Shown one piece after another: positions 12,846-27,224 of a stretch of DNA of 32,475 nt. The stretch is from a virus (Duplodnaviria; Heunggongvirae; Uroviricota; Caudoviricetes): the IMG/VR virus record IMGVR_UViG_2778261088_000010, positions 1 through 32,475 of that record; one strand, written 5' to 3'. Each line of letters opens with the position of its first letter. The first letter of the stretch is position 1. The translations under genes and the position numbers were made by a program. A model generated the notes under the pieces. That model was given only the letters and a program-made list of their open reading frames with translations, was not told the origin of the DNA and made no database searches.

Positions 12846-13373
12846 CTAGAGACTCTCTCCTTCCTCATCAGGAATTAATTCAGCAGCACAAGCCTCGTAG
12901 GATTTTTCCTGAAGAGTGTATCGCAGGTCATCAATGGCCTGCTGTACAACGCCGACGGCCTGAGGAGTCAGGGCGCAATCGCGTTCAAGAACATCCGGAA
13001 TTGTCTCCAGAACCTGGACGACAGCCTTTCTCATGGACGAATAGACGATGACTACTTCATCAACGGGGATGAGTTTTCGCTGCTCCTTTTCCAGCTTGAT
13101 CCTTTCATTTTCAGATTGGTACCAGTCCTTTCTCTCTTTCGGCTCCATACGGGATGGATCATGAACAGAGTCTGCTGCCTCATGCTTCACACTAAACAGG
13201 GCTGGCCCGACATGCTGCAGGGCGTAAACGGGGTTCCCCCTGATAGTCGCAGCCACAGGAGTGTTGGCCGCGAGGAGCCGTTTTTTTACTGTGTCCCGGT
13301 GAAGCCCAAAGGCCTCAGCGATTTTAAAAACACTCCAGTAATAAGCATCACCGATCCCGCTCACATTTGACAT
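12846..13373 (-). CDS. nu1: Terminase small subunit (Nu1-like)
   Basis: It begins about 190 bp from the cos-like sequence, as lambda Nu1 does. The N-terminus has a helix-turn-helix-like segment. The start is taken at the Met at 13373, which has a GGAG RBS. Confidence 0.75.
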   Translation of the reverse strand: MSNVSGIGDAYYWSVFKIAEAFGLHRDTVKKRLLAANTPVAATIRGNPVYALQHVGPALFSVKHEAADSVHDPSRMEPKERKDWYQSENERIKLEKEQRKLIPVDEVVIVYSSMRKAVVQVLETIPDVLERDCALTPQAVGVVQQAIDDLRYTLQEKSYEACAAELIPDEEGESL

Positions 13374-13580: not shown

Positions 13581-14057
13581 ACCCCACCGGGAGGACCCGT
13601 CAGCCTGACAGCTCTGACGAACGTCTGATACAACGCCTTGCATGAATGGCATCGGGATAATCCAGAAAGGCATAGCATCGTGCCCACAAGAATCTGTGTA
13701 AGTGTCCTGTTTCTTCCACCCCCGCACAGGACTGGCGAGCATGAGGGACAAACCCGCGAACCATAAACGCGGTAAAAACCCGGTGTGCATCGTTTTTGAT
13801 TATTCCCGCATACTCGCGCAGAAGGAGTTCCCCGTCGGGCTACGGTCTCTGTTAATACGGGAATACGGCGACGATACAGCGCATGATGTGTCAGGCTTGA
13901 ATACCTTTATCCGTTAAAAGGGATATCAGTTAAGCTATCCCGTGTAGGGTATAAGCCATTATCAAAGCCACTCTGTAGGGAATGGCTTTTGTGATGGCAA
14001 TAAAAAGCCACACATATGCGTGGCCATATCATGTATAAAATCTTATACAACGAATGT

Positions 14058-14798
14058 TTATTTCGTAGGGAAAGATGTGATCACATCAACGATGGGCTGG
14101 ATTGAAAATCCAATACCAATTCCGGAGTTAGCATTCTGCGACATCATGTCCGAAACAATCTGTAGCGATCTACCAAACATGTCCGCCATTTGCCCGAAAT
14201 TAACACCCATGATCTCAACACTTCCATGCTGACTTGCTGAAGAAAGATATTGTCGCAGTTGGGCTATTTCTTGGCTGAAAGCATCAGCCTGATCGCCCAT
14301 TATATATCTACGCTGGGTGACGATACCTACTAACTCTCCCGAATCTCGATCAATAATAGGTCCTCCTGAGTTCCCCCCATTAACCATTCCATCAAGCGTA
14401 AATCGGCCATGCTCCATCGGTGCTGAAATAATTGCCTCACTTGTTAGTAACAGAGGTATCCCATGCGGGTATCCTGCAAAAATTACTTTTCTGCCCCTGG
14501 ATGGAGCAAACCCAGCAGATGGTTGAAGGACTGTTCTCCCGGCAGGAAGCTGTGATTGCAACCGCATAATCGCAAAGTCGTTGTCACCATCAATGTGCAA
14601 TATTTGAGCTTCGATATGCTCATTAACTTCAGTTTGAAGGATGACATGATTAATTTGACGCAGGTTCTGCAAGTCACAGCAGGTGGCGACAACATGCAAA
14701 TTGGTTACGACCAGATCTTCTCGCATGAAGCTGAACCCACTACCACGAGAATCACCTGCAATGACCTGAAACGTTGCGTTGGCTAAAGTTTGATGCAT
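14058..14798 (-). CDS. Trypsin-like (S1/chymotrypsin-fold) serine protease; probable moron
   Basis: The triad context is visible: TNLHVV (His), DNDFAIMRL (Asp) and GNSGGPIID (Ser). No N-terminal signal peptide is evident. A GGAG RBS precedes the ATG at 14798. The gene looks AT-richer than the flanking phage genes. Confidence 0.7.
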   Translation of the reverse strand: MHQTLANATFQVIAGDSRGSGFSFMREDLVVTNLHVVATCCDLQNLRQINHVILQTEVNEHIEAQILHIDGDNDFAIMRLQSQLPAGRTVLQPSAGFAPSRGRKVIFAGYPHGIPLLLTSEAIISAPMEHGRFTLDGMVNGGNSGGPIIDRDSGELVGIVTQRRYIMGDQADAFSQEIAQLRQYLSSASQHGSVEIMGVNFGQMADMFGRSLQIVSDMMSQNANSGIGIGFSIQPIVDVITSFPTK

Positions 14799-15971: not shown

Positions 15972-16118
15972 CGGTAATTACCTTTTAGTGATGAACCTTG
16001 TCACACAGGATTCCGGCCCACAGAAAGGCACCGATAACCAAACCAGCATCCTCAAGGGTCATCCTGAAAGGCTCTGTGTTCATAAGTCGCGCGTGTGAAG
16101 CGCATTTACTGAGGACAT

Positions 16119-16142
16119 AAAAAAGCCCCGCTTCTGCGAGGC
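16119..16142 (-). terminator. Hairpin plus U-tract downstream of Rz
   Basis: On the minus strand the imperfect hairpin GCCTCGCAGAAGCGGGGC is followed by TTTTTTAT. Confidence 0.45.
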
Positions 16143-16184
16143 ATTTTCCTGAAAGTCACTTGTTAAATTTCAGTGAAGTTAAAA

Positions 16185-16646
16185 TTATTTTAAGCACTGA
16201 GTCCTGATGTACTCCTGCAGGTAGTTAACCTGCGCGGTTATCTTGTCGATTCCACTTCGGAGACGGTAATAATTGAATTCAGCATCTGCTGTAAGTCCTG
16301 GGCTTTCTCCATCGCCCATGCTGCTGGCTCCGGTCGTTGATTTTGCACAGGTGGCGGCGACTTGCAGGCGCTTACGCCCAGAAGAAACATCAGCACGGAG
16401 ACTTTCGATAGTCGCGTTAGCATCAGCAAGCTCCTTTGTGTATCTGGCGTCAAGTTCTGCTACGTCACGTTGACGCTTCTGCATATCAGAGATAGTCGCC
16501 ATAGCCGAATCTAATGCCATAGCATTCTCATCACGCTGCTTTTTGTATTCGATGGCTTTGCTGTAGTAATAATTTGCTGAACAGATAAAAGAACCAATGA
16601 CAGTAACGAAGAATGCAGCGATAACCAGCTTATAGCTCAACTTCAT
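16185..16646 (-). CDS. Rz: Rz i-spanin
   Basis: The 153-aa product has an N-terminal transmembrane segment and a conserved core (QRDENA...MQKRQRDVAELDARYTKELADA) very similar to lambda Rz. Confidence 0.85.
   Translation of the reverse strand: MKLSYKLVIAAFFVTVIGSFICSANYYYSKAIEYKKQRDENAMALDSAMATISDMQKRQRDVAELDARYTKELADANATIESLRADVSSGRKRLQVAATCAKSTTGASSMGDGESPGLTADAEFNYYRLRSGIDKITAQVNYLQEYIRTQCLK
16238..16423 (-). CDS. Rz1: Rz1 o-spanin, embedded in the +1 frame of Rz
   Basis: An ORF nested inside Rz in another frame, with a lipoprotein signal and lipobox (MLTRLSKVSVLMFLLGVSAC) followed by a Pro-rich stretch, as for lambda Rz1. Confidence 0.6.
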   Translation of the reverse strand: MLTRLSKVSVLMFLLGVSACKSPPPVQNQRPEPAAWAMEKAQDLQQMLNSIITVSEVESTR

Positions 16647-17106
16647 TTATCACCCCGCCAGCCTCTTTGAATCGGGCAATCAGGTCACCGATTTTATGTT
16701 CATACTGACCGTAACCAGCGCCCGGCAGTGAAGCCCAGATATTGCTGCAACGATCGATAGCCTGACGAATATCGCCGCGATCAATCATCGGTAAAGCGCC
16801 ACGCTCTTTAATCTGCTGCAATGCCACAGCATCCTGGCTTTTTGGAGAGAAGTCTTTCAGCCTAAGCTGCTTGCGGTAAGCATCCCACCAGCGTGAAAGA
16901 AGTTGATAACGGCCTGCAGCTGTTGATTTGAGTTTGGGGTTTAGCGTGACAAGTTTGCGAGGGTGATCGGAGTAATCAGCGAAGAGTTCACCACCAACAA
17001 TAACGTCATAACCGTGGTTACGTGTCGGTTGTCGTCCGTTATCCGTTCCTTCTGACCAAGCCACCATATCGAGGAAAGCTTTACGCTGGGAATTTAGTAC
17101 CTGCAT
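16630..17106 (-). CDS. R: Endolysin (lambda R-type lytic transglycosylase)
   Basis: The 158-aa product (NSQRKAFLDMVAWSEGTDNGRQPTRNHGYDVIVGGELF...) is near-identical in pattern to lambda R. Confidence 0.9.
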   Translation of the reverse strand: MQVLNSQRKAFLDMVAWSEGTDNGRQPTRNHGYDVIVGGELFADYSDHPRKLVTLNPKLKSTAAGRYQLLSRWWDAYRKQLRLKDFSPKSQDAVALQQIKERGALPMIDRGDIRQAIDRCSNIWASLPGAGYGQYEHKIGDLIARFKEAGGVINEVEL

Positions 17107-17109
17107 AAA

Positions 17110-17436
17110 TTACTCCTTAGAGCCACCAAATTTGTTACCGATTACTCGCATTGCAGCCCCACGAATAGCATCGACACCGATCAGCCCCACCCCACCACCA
17201 ATGGCAACAGATAGTGATTTAGGCCATCCGACATACTCAAGAGCGGATGCAAAAGTCAGCGTCAGAGCGCCACAGAGTAGAATTTCGAGTGTTTTTCGCT
17301 TCCAGCCGCCACCACCGCCAAAATAGGCAATACGTAAACCAGCCATAACAATCGACATAATCACTGCGCCCAGCGGTGTGTCTCCACGCCACCAGCTCTG
17401 GACCAACTCCAGCCAGGTATTTGGGTTATGAGGCAT
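17110..17436 (-). CDS. S: Holin (lambda S-like)
   Basis: A 108-aa product with hydrophobic transmembrane segments, lying immediately upstream of R. Confidence 0.75.
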   Translation of the reverse strand: MPHNPNTWLELVQSWWRGDTPLGAVIMSIVMAGLRIAYFGGGGGWKRKTLEILLCGALTLTFASALEYVGWPKSLSVAIGGGVGLIGVDAIRGAAMRVIGNKFGGSKE

Positions 17437-17587
17437 TTGTAGTTATCTCTCACCTCGCCAATACAGGAGGTGCAAATTGAGGGAACATCATGTACCGCAA
17501 ATCAGAAGCGGAAACGTAAAAGAGGCCGAGCCAATGGATAACTGCGGTATAGACCAGGCTCAACAAATAGCCGGGGCCAGAAACGAC

Positions 17588-17609
17588 AAACCCGCTCGAC
17601 GGCGGGTTT
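17588..17609 (-). terminator. Hairpin about 150 bp upstream of S; candidate tR'-like terminator
   Basis: A perfect 8-bp inverted repeat (AAACCCGC, 6-nt loop, GCGGGTTT) with a modest U-rich tail on the minus strand. The tR' assignment is a positional inference. Confidence 0.3.
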
Positions 17610-17836
17610 AAGCTGTGTGGCGAAGTGACCACTCTTAACACGATACAATAGTTTTTGCGTACGCGTTAGCATTTTTGATGGAAGTTAATGGTTGTTAATC
17701 TTATACTCAGTAAACAAAATTTATGCCGCCTTGAGCATGATGCGACATTAGGCACATGTTTGGATCTTCCTCGAAGATTCGTGCGGTAGCTATGCTCAAA
17801 ATCCAATCAGCTCATAAAACATACTATGGGTTTTAA

Positions 17837-18586
17837 ATGCTCATTCCAACATCTCTATCAAAACAACCAGTAATCGAAGCTGCTTTCGAAATGCGTTTTT
17901 CTAAAGAAACACAAATATCGGAAATAGTTCCAGGGTTTCTTTTTCACGCTCTAGGTTGTACAAAACCAGTAATTAGTTTACCACCCAGTCAAATACCTAA
18001 AAATGTTCGTGAGGGAGATGAACAATTACATTACGCAGTTGTCAGTCGCCTCGAAATCGAAGGGTACTATATTGGACTAAGTGACCATGGTGTTGTTGTA
18101 TCCACCAGCACCAAATATCAAGGGTGGAGTCATTTTAGAGAAAAAATCATTCATGTATTAAATGAGCTTAACAAATTAAATTTAAATGACAACATCATCC
18201 GCTACTCATTAAAGTATGTAGATTTTTTCCCAAAAGAAGACGATTCTAATTTATTTGATAAGCTAAACGTCAGCTTAAATATGGCTGGCGAGTCTATGTC
18301 TAATTATCCGATCAATATCAGAATCGATAAAAATGAAGGCGCATTTCTAAATATAATTCAAATATTATCTCATGCTTTAGTCATGTCAGATAATGGAGAA
18401 TTTAATAAAAAAGGACTAATCCTAGACATAGACAGCATTAGGCAAATCACTAATACTGATGAAATAGATAAGTTTAAAAACGAACCAAAAAAAATTCTTG
18501 ATGATCTTCACTCCTGTAATAAATTAGCTTTCTTTAGTTGCCTTAAAGAGTCAACAATTCAAGAACTAGAACCATCCTACAAATAG
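17837..18586 (+). CDS. Hypothetical protein, first gene of the AT-rich three-gene cassette
   Basis: A 249-aa ORF on the strand opposite to all flanking phage genes, with strongly AT-biased codon usage. No catalytic motif was recognised by eye. Confidence 0.6.
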   Translation: MLIPTSLSKQPVIEAAFEMRFSKETQISEIVPGFLFHALGCTKPVISLPPSQIPKNVREGDEQLHYAVVSRLEIEGYYIGLSDHGVVVSTSTKYQGWSHFREKIIHVLNELNKLNLNDNIIRYSLKYVDFFPKEDDSNLFDKLNVSLNMAGESMSNYPINIRIDKNEGAFLNIIQILSHALVMSDNGEFNKKGLILDIDSIRQITNTDEIDKFKNEPKKILDDLHSCNKLAFFSCLKESTIQELEPSYK

Positions 18587-20949: not shown

Positions 20950-21759
20950 TCAATGAACGGTATCGAGCAGCTTTAACAGTTCAGGGAATCGGGATTCGAA
21001 GAAATGCGGTTGCGTCTCGCGCGGATTTGCAGGACTGGTGATGTTCTTGCCGAACATGCAGCCTTTCGCCGTCAGCGACCAGAATTTTTTGATGTTGTTA
21101 ATCGCGGTACGGCTGTATCGTTCGCGTTGTTCAACGATCCCCAGCTTCGCCATCTGGTGATATGCCTGATTAGCCGTCAGGCAGATACCATACTGTTTCA
21201 GCAGTGCACTCAGCGACAGCGTAGGGCGACTTGAGCCATCAGGCGCGTCAGCAGGAGCATCAATGGCATAGCGCGGTGCCAGATTCGGTAAGCCAACAGC
21301 CTCCTGGAGTTTCTGACAGGCACCAAGCACTGAAGAGTTAGACAGGTTTAACTCCCTGCGCATAAAGTCCAGCAGAATCACACCAGCCTGCATCTTGTCA
21401 GCAGCCTGCCCGGATAATTTTTCCGGTGCGCTGGTTACCATATCGAAAGTACGGATCACCTTCAGATGGAATGACGGGCTGATCCACATTGCATAGGCAT
21501 ACACCAGTTCCTTGCAGACATACGTTCCCCGTTCATTTCCCCCATGAATCACACTCACCGGGTCAACACCCAAATTCTGGGTGTTGGTCAATTCATGAAC
21601 AAGCTCAACAGTTTGTTGGCTGGAAAGAAACTTTCCTGGCTCCTTGGTTCTGGCATTTGCACCAGATGCTACTGCTGCGCGATGCAGATCGTTCAGGCTG
21701 TAACGCCCATAAGCATCACGACGAACTTCAATACCATCAATGACCATCAGATTATTCAT
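20950..21759 (-). CDS. KilA-N domain protein
   Basis: The N-terminus (MNNLMVIDGIEVRRDAYGRYSLNDLHRA...PGKFLSS) fits the KilA-N pattern. The start is taken at the internal Met at 21759 to avoid overlap with rusA. Confidence 0.55.
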   Translation of the reverse strand: MNNLMVIDGIEVRRDAYGRYSLNDLHRAAVASGANARTKEPGKFLSSQQTVELVHELTNTQNLGVDPVSVIHGGNERGTYVCKELVYAYAMWISPSFHLKVIRTFDMVTSAPEKLSGQAADKMQAGVILLDFMRRELNLSNSSVLGACQKLQEAVGLPNLAPRYAIDAPADAPDGSSRPTLSLSALLKQYGICLTANQAYHQMAKLGIVEQRERYSRTAINNIKKFWSLTAKGCMFGKNITSPANPRETQPHFFESRFPELLKLLDTVH

Positions 21760-21778
21760 ACTTCGTTTCTCCTCTTGA

Positions 21779-22168
21779 TCAGGCGGCTGCACCCGCCGTT
21801 TTCTCGTACTTACTGATAGTGATCTCGACCTTCCCTTCCGGGATAACCGGTCCCCACTCCACCAGCATTCTTTTCACCTGACTGTCGTCTTCCCACACCC
21901 CCGCGTGGGTCAGGGCGTCAAACAGCGCCTTGTTATAGTTGTCCAGATCGCGGATCCGGTTATCCGGTGGAAACAACACGATCTCCACTGCAGCAGGTGC
22001 CGACGTTGGTTTCGGCAGACGACGTAACTGCTCAACTATTGCTGCGCACGCCGCGCTCTGGAATTTTCGCCCCGCCGCGCTTATCAGGCTCTTACCTGCA
22101 AACGCCCCTTTGTTGGGGTGTCGCCAGTACGTGTTCACGCTGGGCGGAAAAGGCAGGATCAGCTTCAT
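21779..22168 (-). CDS. rusA: Holliday junction resolvase RusA
   Basis: A 129-aa product with LPFPPSVN, RDLDNYNKALFDALT and WEDDSQV motifs matching RusA. Confidence 0.8.
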   Translation of the reverse strand: MKLILPFPPSVNTYWRHPNKGAFAGKSLISAAGRKFQSAACAAIVEQLRRLPKPTSAPAAVEIVLFPPDNRIRDLDNYNKALFDALTHAGVWEDDSQVKRMLVEWGPVIPEGKVEITISKYEKTAGAAA

Positions 22169-22818
22169 GCCACTATCTCCCTGACCAGCCGTTCTGCCTG
22201 CTGGCGAACCTGCGCCAGAAACGCCTCACCACATGCCTCAAGTTCATCGCGCCCGATGTAGCTGATTGCCGGTCCCTTCCAGGTCTTATCGAAAACAGCA
22301 ATAGCACCAGCGAAGAAAGCACCTGTCGGCACCTGCTTCTCGTCTTTCGGGATAAACCAGGCAGGCAGTTCAAAACCAATACGCCCGCGAATAAAAGCAA
22401 TATGGTCTGCATCTTCCGGCCACCACACTTCGCTGGTGGCAGCTTTGATCAGGAAAACATAGCGCCCGCCTTTATCACGCATAGCACTGGCATGTTTCAT
22501 GATGTAACGCATGCCGGTGATGTATTGCCCCTCATGCTGACTGGCGCGGCTGTATGGGGGATTACCAAAGGCAGCACCTTTAAGCTCCGCAAGACGTTCT
22601 GACCAGTCATGCGCCAGCGCGTTGTCTTCCGCCGTGTAATACGCAGCACATTTGGTGTTATCACCGTCAGTGAACAGATCCAGAACAAACGGGCCAAACA
22701 GGGTGTTAATTCCCCAGAAAATGTTGTCCGGCGTGCGCCACTGATCGCCCACTTCCTTCAGTTCATGGGCTGGTTTGTTCCGCAGTTCCACCAGCGCCTG
22801 GCAATATTTATTACTCAT
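22165..22818 (-). CDS. Phage DNA N6-adenine methyltransferase (Dam-like)
   Basis: The catalytic NPPY motif is present (GNPPYS). Size and nin-region position fit phage N6A methyltransferases. The start at 22818 overlaps the upstream stop as TAATG. Confidence 0.75.
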   Translation of the reverse strand: MSNKYCQALVELRNKPAHELKEVGDQWRTPDNIFWGINTLFGPFVLDLFTDGDNTKCAAYYTAEDNALAHDWSERLAELKGAAFGNPPYSRASQHEGQYITGMRYIMKHASAMRDKGGRYVFLIKAATSEVWWPEDADHIAFIRGRIGFELPAWFIPKDEKQVPTGAFFAGAIAVFDKTWKGPAISYIGRDELEACGEAFLAQVRQQAERLVREIVA

Positions 22819-23312
22819 TAAGCCCCCACGTAATTCCCTGACAGATACCACTCATCACCCGGTACAGCGCGCTTGCTGCTTTTCCGTAAACACCGCTCAC
22901 GACGCGCAAGAAAATTGTTTCGCTCTGGCTGGGAGTGGCTTTCACGGAATGCCGCCATCCACACCGTTGCAGCACGACGGTATAAGCCCCTCGACTCCAG
23001 TTCTTCCGCCTGGCGGGTCAGGCACAAAATCACCCGGGGATCGTTAGTGCCGACATAGAAATTGCGCACAGGTCTGGTTTCACGAACTGGTTGCGGTTCC
23101 GCCTCCTGCGCTCTCTCAGTCAGGCGCGGGAAATGTCTGCGTGTATCCCCTTCACAACGGTGAGCCACACGACCACTCTGACGTAACTTGCTTGCTGACT
23201 GCAGAACGCGCTGCCGTGAGTAACCTGCAAAAGCATCCGCAATGTCTCCGGAAGTACACCCCGGATGGGCTTCAATGTATTTCTGAACTTCATTCAAAAG
23301 ACTCATGATCAC
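22818..23312 (-). CDS. Hypothetical nin-region protein (C-terminus possibly PerC/ANR-like)
   Basis: A 164-aa ORF that is translationally coupled to its neighbours. The C-terminal RGLYRRAATVWMAAF...ERNNFLARRERC pattern is reminiscent of PerC/ANR-type regulators; this is a weak call from memory. Confidence 0.4.
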   Translation of the reverse strand: MIMSLLNEVQKYIEAHPGCTSGDIADAFAGYSRQRVLQSASKLRQSGRVAHRCEGDTRRHFPRLTERAQEAEPQPVRETRPVRNFYVGTNDPRVILCLTRQAEELESRGLYRRAATVWMAAFRESHSQPERNNFLARRERCLRKSSKRAVPGDEWYLSGNYVGA

Positions 23313-24127
23313 CCCCTGAATCCTGCCGGGATCTGGCTGTAGTCCACGTTGTCGTAACTGGCTTTGAAGTACGGGTCCTCGCGTCTGGCTGCAGATACCG
23401 CAGGAACTTCCCAGGATTCTTCGAAATGACGATCCGGACCAAAGAACGTGACAGCCTGTTTCACAAATTGTGTGCCGCTGTTACCCATCGCAGATACCCA
23501 GCCCGCGTAGCGTTTCACACCTTCCAGCATGGTTTCGGGGTTTACCCCCTCATTCAAACGGGCTTTCCAGGCTTTGAAGGCTGCAGATTTTGAATTGCCA
23601 CCAGCACGTTTGGGATATACCAGCCATGCCTGCTCAAACTCCGGAGAGTATTCCGGTCGGTTTGAACGAACTCGCACGGACTCATCAACTGATGCACCAA
23701 CAGCTATTGGTTCATTGACTGGTTCTTTGACTGGTTCAAAAGAGTGACTGGTTCTGGGTGAATCTCCTGCACTACCCCCTGGTGCAACTCCTGCACTACC
23801 TGGTGAATTTGCTGCACCAGATAGTGAATTATTTGCACTACCCCCTAGTGAATCTCCTGCACCATCAAGATGAAGGAGATAGATATTACTTGAGTTACCT
23901 TTTTCACCTTTCCGGGTGACTTTTTTTACCAGCCCGGACTCACAAAGGGCCGCAATATGATTCATCACAGAACGTTTGCTAATCTCGCACTGGTCAGCAA
24001 TATGCTGGTAGCTGGGCCAGCACTCACCCTGATCGCTGGCATTATCAGCCAGCTTGATCAGAACCAGTTTTCGCAATGGATTACCCACTCGAATTTTCAT
24101 CGCTTTAACCATCAGCTCCATACTCAT
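23309..24127 (-). CDS. Replication initiator (lambda O-analogue) with an N-terminal HTH and internal repeats
   Basis: The N-terminus has a winged-HTH-like segment (LVLIKLADNASDQGECWPSYQHIADQCEISKRSVMNHI). The central region is encoded by tandem DNA repeats, and the gene sits in the O position. Confidence 0.6.
   Translation of the reverse strand: MSMELMVKAMKIRVGNPLRKLVLIKLADNASDQGECWPSYQHIADQCEISKRSVMNHIAALCESGLVKKVTRKGEKGNSSNIYLLHLDGAGDSLGGSANNSLSGAANSPGSAGVAPGGSAGDSPRTSHSFEPVKEPVNEPIAVGASVDESVRVRSNRPEYSPEFEQAWLVYPKRAGGNSKSAAFKAWKARLNEGVNPETMLEGVKRYAGWVSAMGNSGTQFVKQAVTFFGPDRHFEESWEVPAVSAARREDPYFKASYDNVDYSQIPAGFRG
23711..23869. repeat. Iteron-like direct repeats inside the replication gene (candidate ori)
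   Basis: Three copies of a roughly 13-bp unit (GACTGGTTC...) are followed by five copies of a 21-24-bp unit (GGTGAATCTCCTGCACTACCCCCT and variants). Confidence 0.5.
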
Positions 24128-24360
24128 GCTGCACCTCCGAGATGCTTCATGTTTTTTCCGGAGCGAAAGGCTATAAGCGGCATACTGACGCGGTAATTAC
24201 GGCCAAGCGGTTCACAAATCACCTTCTGGCATTCACGGTCAACCAGGCTAACACGTAGAACATGCCCTGCAGGTGTGGTGTACCACTGCCCAACTGTAGG
24301 AATTGATATTTTTTTACGCTGAAGTAAACGGTGAATATTGAGGATCAACGGATTAAGCAT
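24124..24360 (-). CDS. Hypothetical small protein
   Basis: A 78-aa ORF overlapping both neighbours by a few nucleotides, suggesting an operon. Confidence 0.4.
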   Translation of the reverse strand: MLNPLILNIHRLLQRKKISIPTVGQWYTTPAGHVLRVSLVDRECQKVICEPLGRNYRVSMPLIAFRSGKNMKHLGGAA

Positions 24361-25189
24361 GACGATGCCCTCCGCTGATATTCAGGAGACGGTGAATATG
24401 AAGATTAGCCTTATCCGCCAAACGAATACGTTCAGCCTGCAAGTTAAGAAGGGTTTCTACCAGAAGTTGATGCGCCTGCGGATCTGAAAGAGTTACCTTG
24501 CGCAGAGCACGTAGTGCTGTTGTTACATAACTGAGTTTATGTAAGTCTTCATCATTCAGACGAGTGAGGGCTGGGACAGTAGCCATGATGGCAGCCTCCT
24601 TGATCGGTGAAATACTTCCACCACCGGAAACGCCAATTTCGCTGGTGGTGAACTGAACGGGGTTGGCGTAACCGGTGATCAAGGAAACCGGCGCATCTTT
24701 CGATGCCCCCGCCCAGCCCACCATAACTTTGATGTGAGCAAATGCGGACGATAAAAAAGACGCTGGCGCGTCATATATCGCCTTGATCAATTCCAGGACG
24801 CCAATCCCGGCACCCGCTTTATAAGGTGCCTGAACAGTGTAACGTCCCGGAATGGCAGAATCAATGTGCTGGTGGTCCTTCACACTCAATAAAATCACGC
24901 CTGAATTTCCACAAAGGACTAAAGCACTCATGCGGGTAGTCTTTGCGAAGATAGATAACGCGCTGCGTTTCTGGCTCCCAACGAATAACATGGACATAAA
25001 GCCCTCTTCCGTCACGAAACCAGCGGTTAAGTTCCTGCACAACGCGCCCCCCACAGTCAGGTAAAGTTCTCTGTGGTTACTTACAGCCAGGTGATTTGGT
25101 AATCTGCATTCATGCCGTAACAACAGGTGTTCAGCGACGCTGACCACCTGCTGTTGCGACAAACGGTTATTTGCCGTTAAACTGTTCAT
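24353..25189 (-). CDS. Hypothetical early-region protein
   Basis: A 278-aa ORF translationally coupled to its neighbours. No motif was recognised. Confidence 0.5.
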   Translation of the reverse strand: MNSLTANNRLSQQQVVSVAEHLLLRHECRLPNHLAVSNHRELYLTVGGALCRNLTAGFVTEEGFMSMLFVGSQKRSALSIFAKTTRMSALVLCGNSGVILLSVKDHQHIDSAIPGRYTVQAPYKAGAGIGVLELIKAIYDAPASFLSSAFAHIKVMVGWAGASKDAPVSLITGYANPVQFTTSEIGVSGGGSISPIKEAAIMATVPALTRLNDEDLHKLSYVTTALRALRKVTLSDPQAHQLLVETLLNLQAERIRLADKANLHIHRLLNISGGHRHA

Positions 25190-26071: not shown

Positions 26072-26746
26072 ATGAAAACAGTCCATGACATCCGGCGGTC
26101 TAACGCCAGAAAACTGAGAGATGGTGTTGGCGGGAATTCTTCCTTTGCCACCATGATTGATCGCGAGCCAACCCAGACCAGCAGGTTTATGGGAGATGGT
26201 GCTACTAAAAATATCGGTGACAGCATGGCACGGCACATCGAAAAATGTTTCGACCTGCCTGTCGGATGGCTTGATCAAGAACACCAGACAACAAACATCA
26301 CAAAAAAACCTGATGTTTCAATTACTAACAAACAAATAACGTTAGTCCCTGTCATATCATGGGTACAGGCCGGAGCATGGAAAGAAGTTGGCTATTCTGA
26401 GGTTGATTTGAGCACAGCAGAAACTTATCCCTGCCCTGTACCCTGTGGCGAAATGACTTATATCTTGCGGGTGATTGGTGATTCAATGATTGATGAGTAC
26501 CGCCCGGGAGACATGATTTTTGTAGATCCTGAAGTCCCTGCCTGCCACGGTGACGACGTTATTGCATTGATGCACAATTCAGGCGAAACCACCTTCAAGC
26601 GGTTGATAGAAGATGGAACACAGCGTTATCTCAAAGCATTAAACCCAAACTGGCCTGAGCCTTACATTAAGATTAACGGTAATTGCTCTATAATTGGTAC
26701 AGTGATTTTCTCGGGAAAACCAAGAAGATACACAATAAAGGCCTAA
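26072..26746 (+). CDS. cI: cI-like repressor (N-terminal HTH plus C-terminal LexA/S24 autopeptidase)
   Basis: The C-terminal domain carries the S24 motifs (GDSM with Ser, and a Lys in TFKRL). The N-terminus is HTH-like. It is divergent from cro. Confidence 0.85.
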   Translation: MKTVHDIRRSNARKLRDGVGGNSSFATMIDREPTQTSRFMGDGATKNIGDSMARHIEKCFDLPVGWLDQEHQTTNITKKPDVSITNKQITLVPVISWVQAGAWKEVGYSEVDLSTAETYPCPVPCGEMTYILRVIGDSMIDEYRPGDMIFVDPEVPACHGDDVIALMHNSGETTFKRLIEDGTQRYLKALNPNWPEPYIKINGNCSIIGTVIFSGKPRRYTIKA

Positions 26747-26781: not shown

Positions 26782-27224
26782 ATACTTGACAATGTACCTA
26801 TGAGATACATAATGTATCTAAAAGAAACATGGCACAGGCAAGATTAAAACAAAATTTGGTTGTAACACGGCGTATGGCACATGCGTCGTTAGCGGTCTGG
26901 TGACGTTAAAGGGGACAATCCACTCCTTGCTCGGGCAAACAAACCAGGTAGCCGGAATGTGCAAGTCAATGATGATGCTGATAAGACGCCTAACCAGCGT
27001 GGCGATTCGGTTTGACACCTGGGAAGAGACCAGGGTGCAACGATGAGAGCATTTATGGAGCCGCGACAAAGTGTGGTGCCGTAACAGGCTAAGTGCTCTC
27101 AGCGTTGTGGTAATCCGCGAAATGGCGCGGCGGTAAGTATGGCGGGGTTACTCTTTCCCCGTTGAGGACACCGGATTGTCAGGTTGACCATACGCCTGAG
27201 TGACAACCCCACCACAACAGCCAC

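What the first reader, a model, noticed from the sequence alone, without database searches (positions are those of the whole stretch)
23711..23869. Two families of tandem direct repeats inside the replication gene, a candidate iteron-type origin
Three units of about 13 bp (GACTGGTTC-core) are followed by five units of 21-24 bp (GGTGAATCTCCTGCACTACCCCCT-like), all within the coding sequence of the putative initiator. At protein level they encode a Gly/Ser/Ala/Pro-rich linker. This mirrors lambda, where ori iterons lie inside gene O.
Basis: partly seen in the sequence, partly recalled or inferred. Interest (0 to 1): 0.4.

Follow-up and report, generated by a model that had tools for sequence, protein, structure and literature searches.

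The report
Phage replication origin inside initiator gene
The repeats are real and are very probably the replication origin of an SfV-like E. coli prophage, written inside the gene of its own initiator protein as in phage lambda; an adjoining 38-base stretch is kept letter-for-letter identical in relatives from many bacterial genera.

Summary
They lie in the minus-strand gene 23309-24127, a 272-aa HTH_36 phage replication initiator.

The five 21/24-bp units are each an imperfect 19-bp palindrome (TAGTGCA-N5-TKCACTA). Among 70 non-redundant relatives from Gammaproteobacteria:
- 69 carry 3-7 such palindromes at 21/24-bp spacing.
- In 33 of them one unit is read in a different reading frame while its DNA is preserved.
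- The half-site changes together with the recognition helix of the initiator.

This is selection on the DNA, not on the protein linker, and it behaves as initiator-binding iterons should.

The 12-bp GAACCAGTCA repeats are a different thing. They sit in a 38-bp element (23721-23758) whose codons are 93-100% invariant across all 70 relatives, whereas conserved residues of the HTH domain use their commonest codon only 52% of the time. The element lies at the junction where N- and C-terminal modules are exchanged between phages. I infer an unwinding or loading site.

The initiator is not a sequence homologue of lambda O. No binding or replication assay exists. I found no description of this origin in the searchable literature. 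Verdict: a new member of a known kind.

The parts
23309..24127 (-). Replication initiator gene, 272 aa (same family as SfV orf39 and ST64B sb42)
   Evidence: ORF. Pfam HTH_36 at aa 17-67, E=1.8e-11. PHROG 270 'replication initiation protein', E=6.9e-88. 99% identical to the replication-protein genes of SfV, mEp460 and Stx2c phages.
23867..24127 (-). Coding region of the N-terminal winged-helix DNA-binding domain (aa 1-87); predicted recognition helix at aa 51-64 (KRSVMNHIAALCES)
   Evidence: AlphaFold2 model: helices 3-11, 17-28, 40-47 and 51-64, wing strands 67-73 and 79-85, pLDDT 72-85. Foldseek matches to winged-helix proteins, including DnaD-N 2v79 and RepA_N 4pql/4pt7, all weak (E about 1e-2).
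23846..23864 (-). Iteron 1 (coding strand TGGTGCA-GGAGA-TTCACTA)
23822..23840 (-). Iteron 2 (TAGTGCA-AATAA-TTCACTA)
23801..23819 (-). Iteron 3 (TGGTGCA-GCAAA-TTCACCA)
23780..23798 (-). Iteron 4 (TAGTGCA-GGAGT-TGCACCA); its GTGCA/TGCAC arms are perfectly symmetric
   Evidence: (matches on both strands)
23756..23774 (-). Iteron 5 (TAGTGCA-GGAGA-TTCACCC); directly abuts the 38-bp element and overlaps it by 3 nt
23721..23758 (-). Family-wide invariant 38-bp element, CCCAGAACCAGTCACTCTTTTGAACCAGTCAAAGAACC (encodes PRTSHSFEPVKEP). Contains two GAACCAGTCA copies at 23745-23754 and 23728-23737.
   Evidence: Codon invariance 0.93-1.00 in 70 non-redundant relatives, against 0.52 in the HTH domain. Per-base conservation of at least 95% at most positions. 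Found in 139 phage records and at least 120 IMG/VR contigs; always inside this gene family, and in the same reading frame wherever frame was examined.
23708..23720 (-). Lineage-specific extra 12-bp unit: the tail (AGTCA) of the third GAACCAGTCA copy (full copy 23716-23725), then AT and a partial fourth copy GAACCA (23708-23713)
   Evidence: The number of these units varies from 2 to 4 among near-identical proteins (P0017, P0018, P0020).
23309..23692 (-). Coding region of the exchangeable C-terminal domain (aa 146-272), the presumed recruiter of helicase or primosome
   Evidence: PHROG 1701 'DnaD-like helicase loader' at aa 145-249, E=7e-33. This domain is swapped independently of the N-terminal domain among phages. 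ST64B is 100% identical in nucleotides through the 38-bp element and 78% after it.

Best explanation
This is the replication origin of an SfV-like temperate phage, embedded in the gene of its own initiator.

Shown by sequence comparison:
- The five 19-bp imperfect palindromes, spaced 21 or 24 bp (about two helical turns), are under selection as DNA.
- They change their half-site together with the recognition helix of the initiator's N-terminal winged-helix domain.
- The adjoining 38-bp element with GAACCAGTCA repeats is under strict nucleotide-level selection. It is the same in every relative, whatever its iteron type or C-terminal domain.

Inferred, by analogy with lambda O and ori-lambda:
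- Dimers of the N-terminal domain bind the palindromes and assemble a wrapped nucleoprotein complex.
- This complex destabilises or exposes the adjacent 38-bp element. The element then serves as the site of strand opening and helicase or primosome loading, recognised in a sequence-specific way by a constant part of the initiator or by a host factor conserved in Gammaproteobacteria.
- The exchangeable C-terminal domain recruits the helicase: a host helicase here, because no phage helicase or loader gene follows the initiator in this window.

The peptide encoded by the repeats (aa 88-145) is a disordered tether, which can tolerate whatever the DNA requires.

Confidence by step: about 0.8 that the 21/24-bp units are initiator-binding origin iterons; about 0.5 that the 38-bp element is the unwinding or loading site.
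For: Identity of the gene. It carries HTH_36 and matches PHROG 270 'replication initiation protein'. It sits in the early-right operon after cI-like, CII-like and Ash genes. It is 99% identical to the replication genes of SfV, mEp460, cdtI and Stx2c phages.

Iterons.
- 69 of 70 non-redundant relatives from Enterobacterales, Pseudomonas, Vibrio, Shewanella, Aeromonas, Pasteurellaceae and others have 3-7 units. Spacings are 21 (100 cases), 24 (80), 22 (32) and 23 (28).
- In 33 of 69, one unit lies in another reading frame. In L018, for example, TAGTGCAGGAGATTCAC is read both as SAGDS and as VVQEIH.
- Half-site tracks recognition helix: KRSVMNH with GTGCA (16 of 17), K-R-x-x-MRH with GTGAC (3 of 3), RSTVKLH with GGGCA, RSTVKVH with GGGCG, RSTVRKH with TAGGC, KSAVRNH with TGCCA. 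Adjusted mutual information is 0.435, reached by 0 of 2000 permutations.
- Iteron DNA is more conserved than HTH-domain DNA.
- Natural alleles carry 9, 8, 7, 5, 2 or 1 units.

38-bp element.
- Ten degenerate codons are 93-100% invariant, including the rare AGA, against a mean of 0.52 for 37 conserved HTH-domain codons.
- The relatives were retrieved with N-terminal peptide patterns only, so the sample is not biased towards the element.
- The AT-rich wing-coding patch on the other side of the iterons varies freely at synonymous sites.
- As single-stranded RNA the element region folds no better than shuffled sequence (z = +1.47).

Architecture. An N-terminal winged helix, a disordered stretch at aa 91-157 and a helical C-terminal domain. 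This is the same layout as lambda, where the annotated iterons begin at O codon 117 with spacings of 20, 24 and 23 bp and are followed by the A/T-rich tract. Published work on lambda, P27 and 933W shows that O dimers bind such iterons, that synonymous iteron mutations abolish plasmid replication, and that O binds the single-stranded AT-rich region (PMC7466680).
Against: - No experiment on any member of this family was found, so binding and ori activity are inferred only.
- The permutation test for covariation ignores phylogeny. RRSV-type helices go with both GTGAA and GTGCA.
- A few relatives have only one unit (SI8, L090, P0042). These are either defective or use another origin.
- The 38-bp element is not markedly AT-rich: its GC is 0.36-0.57 across relatives, and the window 23700-23739 is 0.40. 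It is the least stable 30-mer of the gene only in high-GC hosts (rank 0-0.05). In low-GC hosts it ranks 0.45-0.7. A simple unwinding-element role is therefore unproven.
- The element always lies in one reading frame and encodes a conserved peptide, so some protein-level constraint coexists with the DNA-level one.
- I recognised no DnaA box or IHF site in it by eye; no scan was run.
Confidence: 0.72

Rival explanations
1. The repeats are only a low-complexity Gly/Ser/Ala/Pro linker. They arose by replication slippage and are kept for protein flexibility, with no function as DNA.
For: The segment is predicted to be disordered, with pLDDT about 30 at aa 91-157. Copy number varies by whole units, as slippage would produce.
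Against: The same 17-19-nt palindrome is kept in two reading frames that encode unrelated peptides. Linker DNA is more conserved than the DNA of the folded domain. Dyad symmetry and 21/24-bp phasing hold in all specificity classes even though the peptides differ completely: GDSLGGSA, SDKMSPP, GGAGAA, TPPVPP, VGPEST. The codons of the 38-mer are invariant.
Confidence: 0.03
2. The palindromes are binding sites for the initiator or another HTH protein, but they serve regulation rather than origin firing. Possible roles are autorepression, a transcriptional roadblock inside the operon, or copy-number handcuffing.
For: Dyad-symmetric 19-mers resemble operators. Covariation shows only that the protein and the sites match, not what the complex does.
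Against: There are 4-5 phased sites inside the coding region and none at the promoter or elsewhere in the window. The position and geometry match the experimentally defined lambda origin. The protein family is annotated throughout as a replication initiator, and its C-terminal domains pair with helicase or primase genes in relatives.
Confidence: 0.08
3. The 38-bp element, which holds the 12-bp repeat family, is not part of the origin machinery. It may be kept as a homologous-recombination joint that lets phages exchange the origin-specificity module and the helicase-recruitment module, or it may act as an mRNA or translation signal.
For: The element sits exactly at the mosaic junction. tblastn matches cover either aa 1-140 or aa 142-272. 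ST64B is 100% identical through the element and 78% after it. The element always lies in the same frame.
Against: Selection for evolvability alone is unlikely to hold about 38 bases invariant from Haemophilus to Pseudomonas while neighbouring synonymous sites are randomised. No RNA family matches and no stable RNA fold is predicted. In lambda, the segment in the corresponding position next to the iterons is the unwinding region.
Confidence: 0.17

Closest known systems
Phage lambda O protein and ori-lambda, with the Stx-phage variants P27 and 933W
   Same: The origin lies inside the initiator gene, between an N-terminal winged-helix DNA-binding domain and a C-terminal recruitment domain. It has four to six 18-19-bp sites with dyad symmetry, spaced 20-24 bp, followed in the direction of transcription by a distinct segment. 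Iteron number varies between relatives. The coding sequence tolerates the sites.
   Different: There is no detectable sequence similarity to O: best BLASTP E is 0.02 over 22 residues, with no PF04492 or TIGR01610 match. The segment after the iterons is not a plain A/T-rich tract. It is a 38-bp sequence held nearly invariant across many genera and contains GAACCAGTCA direct repeats. No P-like loader gene follows in this window.
Gene 18 origins of phages P22 and L
   Same: Lambdoid phages whose initiator genes carry their own sets of repeats, proposed to be iterons (PMC8022706).
   Different: The repeat sequences and lengths differ: about 20 bp in P22 and an 11-bp TGTCCAACGGA in L. Relatedness of gp18 to this protein was not tested here.
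Iteron plasmids (RK2 TrfA, pPS10 RepA and similar) with 13-mer repeats in the DNA unwinding element
   Same: Repeated initiator sites lie next to a region of short direct repeats, which the initiator binds in single-stranded form (abstract of PMC4081077). This is the model behind my reading of the GAACCAGTCA repeats.
   Different: Plasmid iterons are asymmetric direct repeats that lie outside the rep gene and are bound by Rep monomers. Here the units are palindromic and lie inside the gene. No Rep_3-type domain was found.
DnaD and RepA_N winged-helix initiator or loader proteins of Firmicutes
   Same: A winged-helix N-terminal domain: weak Pfam DnaD_N match of 24.3 bits against a 27-bit cutoff, and Foldseek matches to 2v79, 4pql and 4pt7. 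The C-terminal domain matches a PHROG named 'DnaD-like helicase loader'.
   Different: All matches fall below the curated or significance thresholds. Membership is not established.

Membership tests
Lambda-type origin embedded in the initiator gene (works-like test) | An array of at least 2-4 sites of about 18-20 bp with dyad symmetry, phased about two helical turns apart | tested here: met
   Five 19-bp imperfect palindromes at spacings of 24, 21, 21, 24. The same holds in 69 of 70 relatives.
Lambda-type origin embedded in the initiator gene (works-like test) | The sites lie within the initiator ORF, between the DNA-binding domain and the C-terminal domain | tested here: met
   The sites span aa 88-124, between the winged helix (aa 1-87) and the C-terminal domain (aa 146-272). 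In lambda the iterons begin at O codon 117.
Lambda-type origin embedded in the initiator gene (works-like test) | The site sequence co-varies with the initiator's DNA-binding domain among relatives | tested here: met
   Table of recognition helix against half-site; adjusted mutual information 0.435, reached by 0 of 2000 permutations, not corrected for phylogeny.
Lambda-type origin embedded in the initiator gene (works-like test) | An adjacent A/T-rich, easily unwound region | tested here: inconclusive
   The adjacent 38-bp element has GC of 0.36-0.57. It is the least stable 30-mer of the gene in high-GC hosts but only average in low-GC hosts. Its conservation is sequence-specific rather than compositional.
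Lambda-type origin embedded in the initiator gene (works-like test) | The initiator binds the sites and the segment supports replication | not testable with these tools
   This needs EMSA or footprinting and a plasmid ori assay. No published data for this family were found.
Lambda O protein family (Pfam Phage_rep_O PF04492 / TIGR01610) | Sequence homology of the N-terminal domain to lambda O | tested here: not met
   No PF04492 match. No TIGR01610 match, although lambda O scores 132.6 bits on it. BLASTP against lambda O gives only a chance-level match.
HTH_36 (PF13730) phage replication initiators / PHROG 270 | Match to the family profiles above threshold | tested here: met
   PF13730 at 44.1 bits against a 25-bit cutoff. 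PHROG 270 E=6.9e-88 over aa 3-271. Of 5424 homologues with E<=1e-10, the 120 listed all carry PF13730.
Iteron-plasmid Rep proteins (Rep_3 / RepA WH1-WH2) | A Rep_3-type domain, with asymmetric direct-repeat iterons outside the rep gene | tested here: not met
   No such Pfam match. The units are palindromic and intragenic.
DnaD-like proteins | DnaD_N and/or DnaB_2 domains above threshold | tested here: inconclusive
   DnaD_N scores 24.3 bits, below the 27-bit cutoff. Structural matches are weak, with E about 2e-2. The C-terminal domain model has low confidence.

The most novel reading that the evidence does not exclude
The 38-bp sequence CCCAGAACCAGTCACTCTTTTGAACCAGTCAA[A/T]GAACC is a portable, sequence-specific origin core. 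It is shared by hundreds of otherwise diverged prophages across Gammaproteobacteria and is read by one constant partner, either an invariant surface of the initiator or a conserved host replication factor, most likely as single-stranded DNA. It also acts as the recombination joint through which phages reassort origin specificity (N-terminal domain plus iterons) and helicase recruitment (C-terminal domain). If so, a short DNA word would mark the exact initiation site in a large class of prophages, including Stx2a phages of the phi24B, Min27 and F403 type.
Probability: 0.35. Interest if true: 0.6.

Novelty: new member of a known kind. Interest (0 to 1): 0.45.

Why it matters
1. It places the replication origin, to within about 160 bp, for a very common family of temperate phages. 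The initiator gene matches in 2718 of 5426 complete E. coli genomes, and fully in 897 of them. The family includes SfV, ST64B, cdtI, Stx2c phages and, with other iteron types, Stx2a phages such as phi24B, Min27 and F403. Phage replication drives Shiga-toxin output in such strains (stated in PMC7466680).

2. It provides a natural table matching recognition helices to half-sites for a winged-helix initiator. This table is directly usable for specificity-swap experiments.

3. Iterons that keep their DNA while being translated in two reading frames are an unusually clean demonstration that a coding stretch is shaped by a DNA function.

4. The 38-bp invariant element is a concrete, testable candidate for a sequence-specific unwinding or loading signal. 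It would also be a convenient marker for annotating prophage origins.

Tried and rejected
- Known RNA element. The Rfam scan of 23000-24500 at E<=1 gave only a chance miRNA match at 22 bits against an 84-bit gathering score. The element region folds no better than shuffled sequence, both as RNA and as DNA. Rejected.
- Homology to lambda O. BLASTP, Pfam and NCBIfam were all negative.
- Solved-structure homologues by sequence. None were found; the best hits were chance matches to amylases through the low-complexity linker.
- AlphaFold2 with a 13-sequence alignment. It gave a usable N-terminal domain only (mean pLDDT 54). The C-terminal domain stays unassigned, and the fold search returned only generic winged-helix matches.
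- AT-rich patch upstream of the iterons (wing-coding region, GC 0.375) as the unwinding element. Its codons vary freely among relatives, so there is no nucleotide-level constraint. It is not excluded as a passive low-stability region.
- The 38-mer outside this gene family. In phages, PLSDB plasmids and IMG/VR it occurs only inside these initiator genes (and always in the same reading frame in the IMG/VR set, the only one where frame was checked), so no independent context gives a clue to its partner.
- Promoter, DnaA-box, IHF-site and frameshift-site readings of the 38-mer. I considered these by eye only and none fitted convincingly. No scan was run.
- Literature. The SfV and ST64B genome papers are not held. 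The 'Eru' Stx-phage replication paper mentions no iterons or repeats. The pIGMS31 preprint proved unrelated. Searching for the motif strings found nothing relevant.
Full report
OBSERVATION

The two repeat families are present as described. Tandem Repeats Finder reports 23708-23738 (period 12, 2.6 copies) and 23758-23862 (period 24/21, 4.6 copies). The repeat finder gives three copies of TGACTGGTTC and the long-unit family. On the + strand the long units start at 23758, 23782, 23803, 23824 and 23848.

The core pattern GTGNATNNNNTGCAC (up to 1 mismatch) matches 9 times in the window, against 2.5 expected. No shuffle out of 100 reached 9. Six of those 9 matches, covering all five units, lie within 105 bp.

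Everything lies in the minus-strand ORF 23309-24127 (272 aa). Unit 4 (GTGCAGGAGTTGCAC) has perfect 5-bp arms.

THE GENE AND ITS SETTING

The protein has a Pfam HTH_36 domain (aa 17-67, E=1.8e-11) and a sub-threshold DnaD_N match. It matches PHROG 270 'replication initiation protein' over its whole length (E=6.9e-88). Its C-terminal half also matches PHROGs named 'DnaD-like helicase loader' and 'primosomal protein'.

On the same strand it follows CII-like (CP76) and Ash-family genes, with a divergently transcribed cI-like S24-peptidase repressor gene upstream of them. PerC/yfdN, Dam methylase, RusA and KilA-N genes follow it. No helicase or loader gene is present.

The gene is 99% identical to the replication genes of phages SfV (orf39), mEp460, cdtI and many Stx2c phages, and 88% identical to ST64B sb42. 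It matches in 2718 of 5426 complete E. coli genomes, and over at least 80% of its length in 897.

An AlphaFold2 model gives a winged helix-turn-helix for aa 1-88 (pLDDT 72-85). The recognition helix is at aa 51-64. The segment aa 91-157 is disordered (pLDDT about 30), and the helical C-terminal domain has low confidence. Fold matches are generic winged-helix proteins, among them DnaD-N and RepA_N initiators. The repeats therefore encode a disordered tether.

RELATIVES: A MOSAIC FAMILY

tblastn against phages shows that the N-terminal part (aa 1-140) and the C-terminal part (aa 142-272) occur in different combinations. I fetched ten phage relatives and 80 diverse prophage copies. The prophage copies came from one genome per species and were retrieved with peptide patterns from the extreme N-terminus only. 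They come from Enterobacterales, Pseudomonas, Vibrio, Shewanella, Aeromonas, Marinomonas, Xenorhabdus, Photorhabdus, Haemophilus and other genera.

After removing near-duplicates, 70 sequences remained.

THE 21/24-BP UNITS BEHAVE AS ITERONS

- Universality. 69 of the 70 have 3-7 units, mostly 4 or 5. Spacings are 21 (100 cases), 24 (80), 22 (32) and 23 (28).
- Dyad symmetry in every class, although the encoded peptides differ completely. Examples: TAGTGAC-AAAAT-GTCACC in Vibrio phage D67 (SDKMSP); GGGGCA-GGAGC-TGCCCC in Stx2a phage F403 (GGAGAA); TATGCCA-N5-TGGCATA in phiV039C and klb_E; TGTGCCG-CCAGA-AAGCACA in S107 (TPPVPP); TGTAGGC-N5-GCCTACA in Pseudomonas prophages (VGPEST).
- Frame independence. 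In 33 of 69 relatives one unit lies in a different reading frame from its neighbours, offset by spacings of 23+22 instead of 21/24. In Pseudomonas L018 the 19-mer TAGTGCAGGAGATTCACCA is read as VVQEIHQ, while its sister units read SAGDS. In Erwinia L037, GGTGACACAGAGTCACC is read both as GDTESP and as VVTQSH. Selection on a peptide cannot do this.
- Conservation. Against relatives of the same iteron type (Aeromonas phage AsXd-1, Rahnella, Phytobacter), the iteron region is 0.83-0.86 identical in DNA. The well-conserved HTH domain is 0.69-0.75 identical, and its synonymous sites are 39-46% identical.
- Covariation. The half-site core tracks residues 51-57 of the recognition helix. KRSVMNH goes with GTGCA (16 of 17). 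KRSVMRH and KRTAMRH go with GTGAC (3 of 3, from Erwinia, Izhakiella and a Vibrio phage). RSTVKLH goes with GGGCA, RSTVKVH with GGGCG, RSTVRKH with TAGGC and KSAVRNH with TGCCA. Adjusted mutual information is 0.435, reached by 0 of 2000 permutations. The test does not correct for shared ancestry, and RRSV-type helices occur with both GTGAA and GTGCA.
- Copy number. Near-identical E. coli and Shigella alleles of 302, 294, 286, 272, 250 and 242 aa carry 9, 8, 7, 5, 2 and 1 units. Phage cdtI has a 66-bp duplication, which is three units. The 5-unit allele is by far the commonest, with 2852 member sequences in its cluster.

THE 12-BP REPEATS BELONG TO A DIFFERENT, CONSTANT ELEMENT

The GAACCAGTCA copies lie in the sequence CCCAGAACCAGTCACTCTTTTGAACCAGTCAA[A/T]GAACC. 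In the window this is 23721-23758 on the minus strand, encoding PRTSHSFEPVKEP. It begins where the last iteron ends.

Across the 70 relatives its codons are essentially fixed. CCC, AGA, ACC, AGT, CAC, TCT, TTT and GAA are 100% invariant among sequences with that residue; CCA is 93% and GTC 97%. By contrast, 37 equally conserved residues of the HTH domain use their commonest codon only 52% of the time on average. Per-base conservation is at least 95% at most of the 38 positions.

The element is the same whatever the iteron class and whatever the C-terminal domain. It marks the point of module exchange. ST64B is 100% identical to the window through the element and 78% after it.

It is found in 139 phage records, in 15 phage-like circular 'plasmids' and in at least 120 IMG/VR contigs. 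It is always inside this gene family, and in the IMG/VR set, where I examined frame, always in the same reading frame.

It is the least stable 30-mer of the gene in high-GC hosts but only average in low-GC hosts. The conservation is therefore of a specific sequence, not merely of low GC. The region has no better-than-random fold as RNA (z = +1.47), and no Rfam match. The AT-rich patch on the other side of the iterons varies freely at synonymous sites.

In this window's lineage the element is extended by one further 12-bp unit, down to 23708. Close relatives have one more or one fewer.

MECHANISM

What is shown:
- There are two DNA elements under nucleotide-level selection inside the linker-coding part of an initiator gene.
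- One element is specificity-determining and co-varies with the DNA-binding helix. The other is universal.

What is inferred by analogy with lambda:
- In lambda the annotated iterons start at O codon 117, are spaced 20, 24 and 23 bp, and are followed by the A/T-rich unwinding tract.
- O dimers bind the iterons, synonymous iteron mutations abolish replication, and O also binds the single-stranded A/T-rich DNA (PMC7466680).
- By that analogy, dimers of the winged-helix domain occupy the palindromes and build a wrapped complex. The adjacent 38-bp element is opened and used for helicase or primosome loading. The C-terminal domain recruits the helicase.

The last point fits the relatives. Their different C-terminal domains are followed by different partners: a DnaB-type helicase in phiV039C, a primase-helicase in S107 and SI8, and a 2.9-kb replication protein in F403. 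In the window no such gene follows, so a host helicase is implied.

The GAACCAGTCA direct repeats recall the 13-mers of plasmid and chromosomal unwinding elements, which initiators bind as single strands (abstract of PMC4081077). That parallel is a lead, not a test.

COMPARISON WITH KNOWN SYSTEMS

The architecture is that of lambda's origin. The protein, however, is not a member of the lambda O family: BLASTP gives only chance-level matches, and PF04492 and TIGR01610 are absent. It belongs to the HTH_36 / PHROG 270 initiators.

Origins made of repeats inside initiator genes are also proposed for P22 and phage L gene 18 (PMC8022706).

In the searchable literature I found no description of the origin of this family, of the frame-shifted iterons or of the invariant 38-mer. 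The original SfV and ST64B genome papers are not held, so an earlier mention cannot be excluded.

VERDICT

- It is a new member of a known kind, an origin embedded in the initiator gene. Its unusually informative comparative signature includes a universal 38-bp element whose partner is unknown.
- Binding and ori activity still need experiments.

Noticed in passing
L005 (AP012529.1, Stx2a_F403) 1501-2277; also HM208303.1 (phi24B) about 12902-12939 and NC_010237.1 (Min27) 14043-14080: The gene annotated 'O' in Stx2a phages of the phi24B, Min27 and F403 type belongs to this HTH_36 family, not to the lambda O family. It carries three GGGGCA-GGAGC-TGCCCC palindromes plus the 38-bp element, and a 2.9-kb 'replication protein' gene follows it. 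Origin models taken from lambda, 933W and P27 would not apply to these phages.
   Followed up: partly
L001 (ST64B) 1501-2319, compared with window 23309-24127: ST64B is 100% identical in nucleotides to the window through the N-terminal domain and the 38-bp element, 95% in the iterons and only 78% in the C-terminal domain. This indicates a recombination breakpoint immediately after the element.
   Followed up: partly
L054 (Pseudomonas bharatica CSV86) 1501-1928: The initiator ORF ends after 133 aa, reading '...GVVQELHPEPVTLLNQ'. This is a frameshift inside the iteron array that runs through the 38-bp element in the +1 frame. It is either a pseudogene or an assembly error.
   Followed up: no
PLSDB records NZ_CP098024.1 (Microbulbifer, 43.5 kb), CP077666.1 (Salmonella, 38.9 kb), NZ_CP148393.1 (E. 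coli, 44.6 kb), NZ_CP118695.1 (Klebsiella, 41.5 kb): Circular 'plasmids' of about 40 kb carry this initiator and the 38-mer. They may be excised or replicating phage genomes, or phage-plasmids. If they are maintained as plasmids, they would be natural evidence of autonomous replication from this module.
   Followed up: no
window 26791-26830: Two tandem copies (80% matches) of a 20-bp unit, AATGTACCTAAAAGAAACAT, lie just downstream of the cI-like repressor gene 26072-26746. Their function is unknown.
   Followed up: no
window 20950-21792, compared with L172 (E. coli 720632) 16006-18128: The KilA-N gene is intact in the window (280 aa). In the otherwise 100%-matching prophage copy of strain 720632 it is split by an IS3-family insertion.
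   Followed up: no
window 23309-23312 and 24124-24127: The initiator ORF overlaps the downstream PerC/yfdN ORF (22818-23312) by 4 nt, and the upstream 78-aa ORF (24124-24360, PHROG 1153, function unknown) by 4 nt. This suggests translational coupling along the early operon.
   Followed up: no
L010 (Salmonella phage SI8) 1501-2133; L090 (Ca. Phlomobacter) 1501-1818; protein P0042: Some family members keep the 38-bp element but have only one palindrome. They may be defective, or may rely on their primase-helicase partner or on another origin.
   Followed up: no
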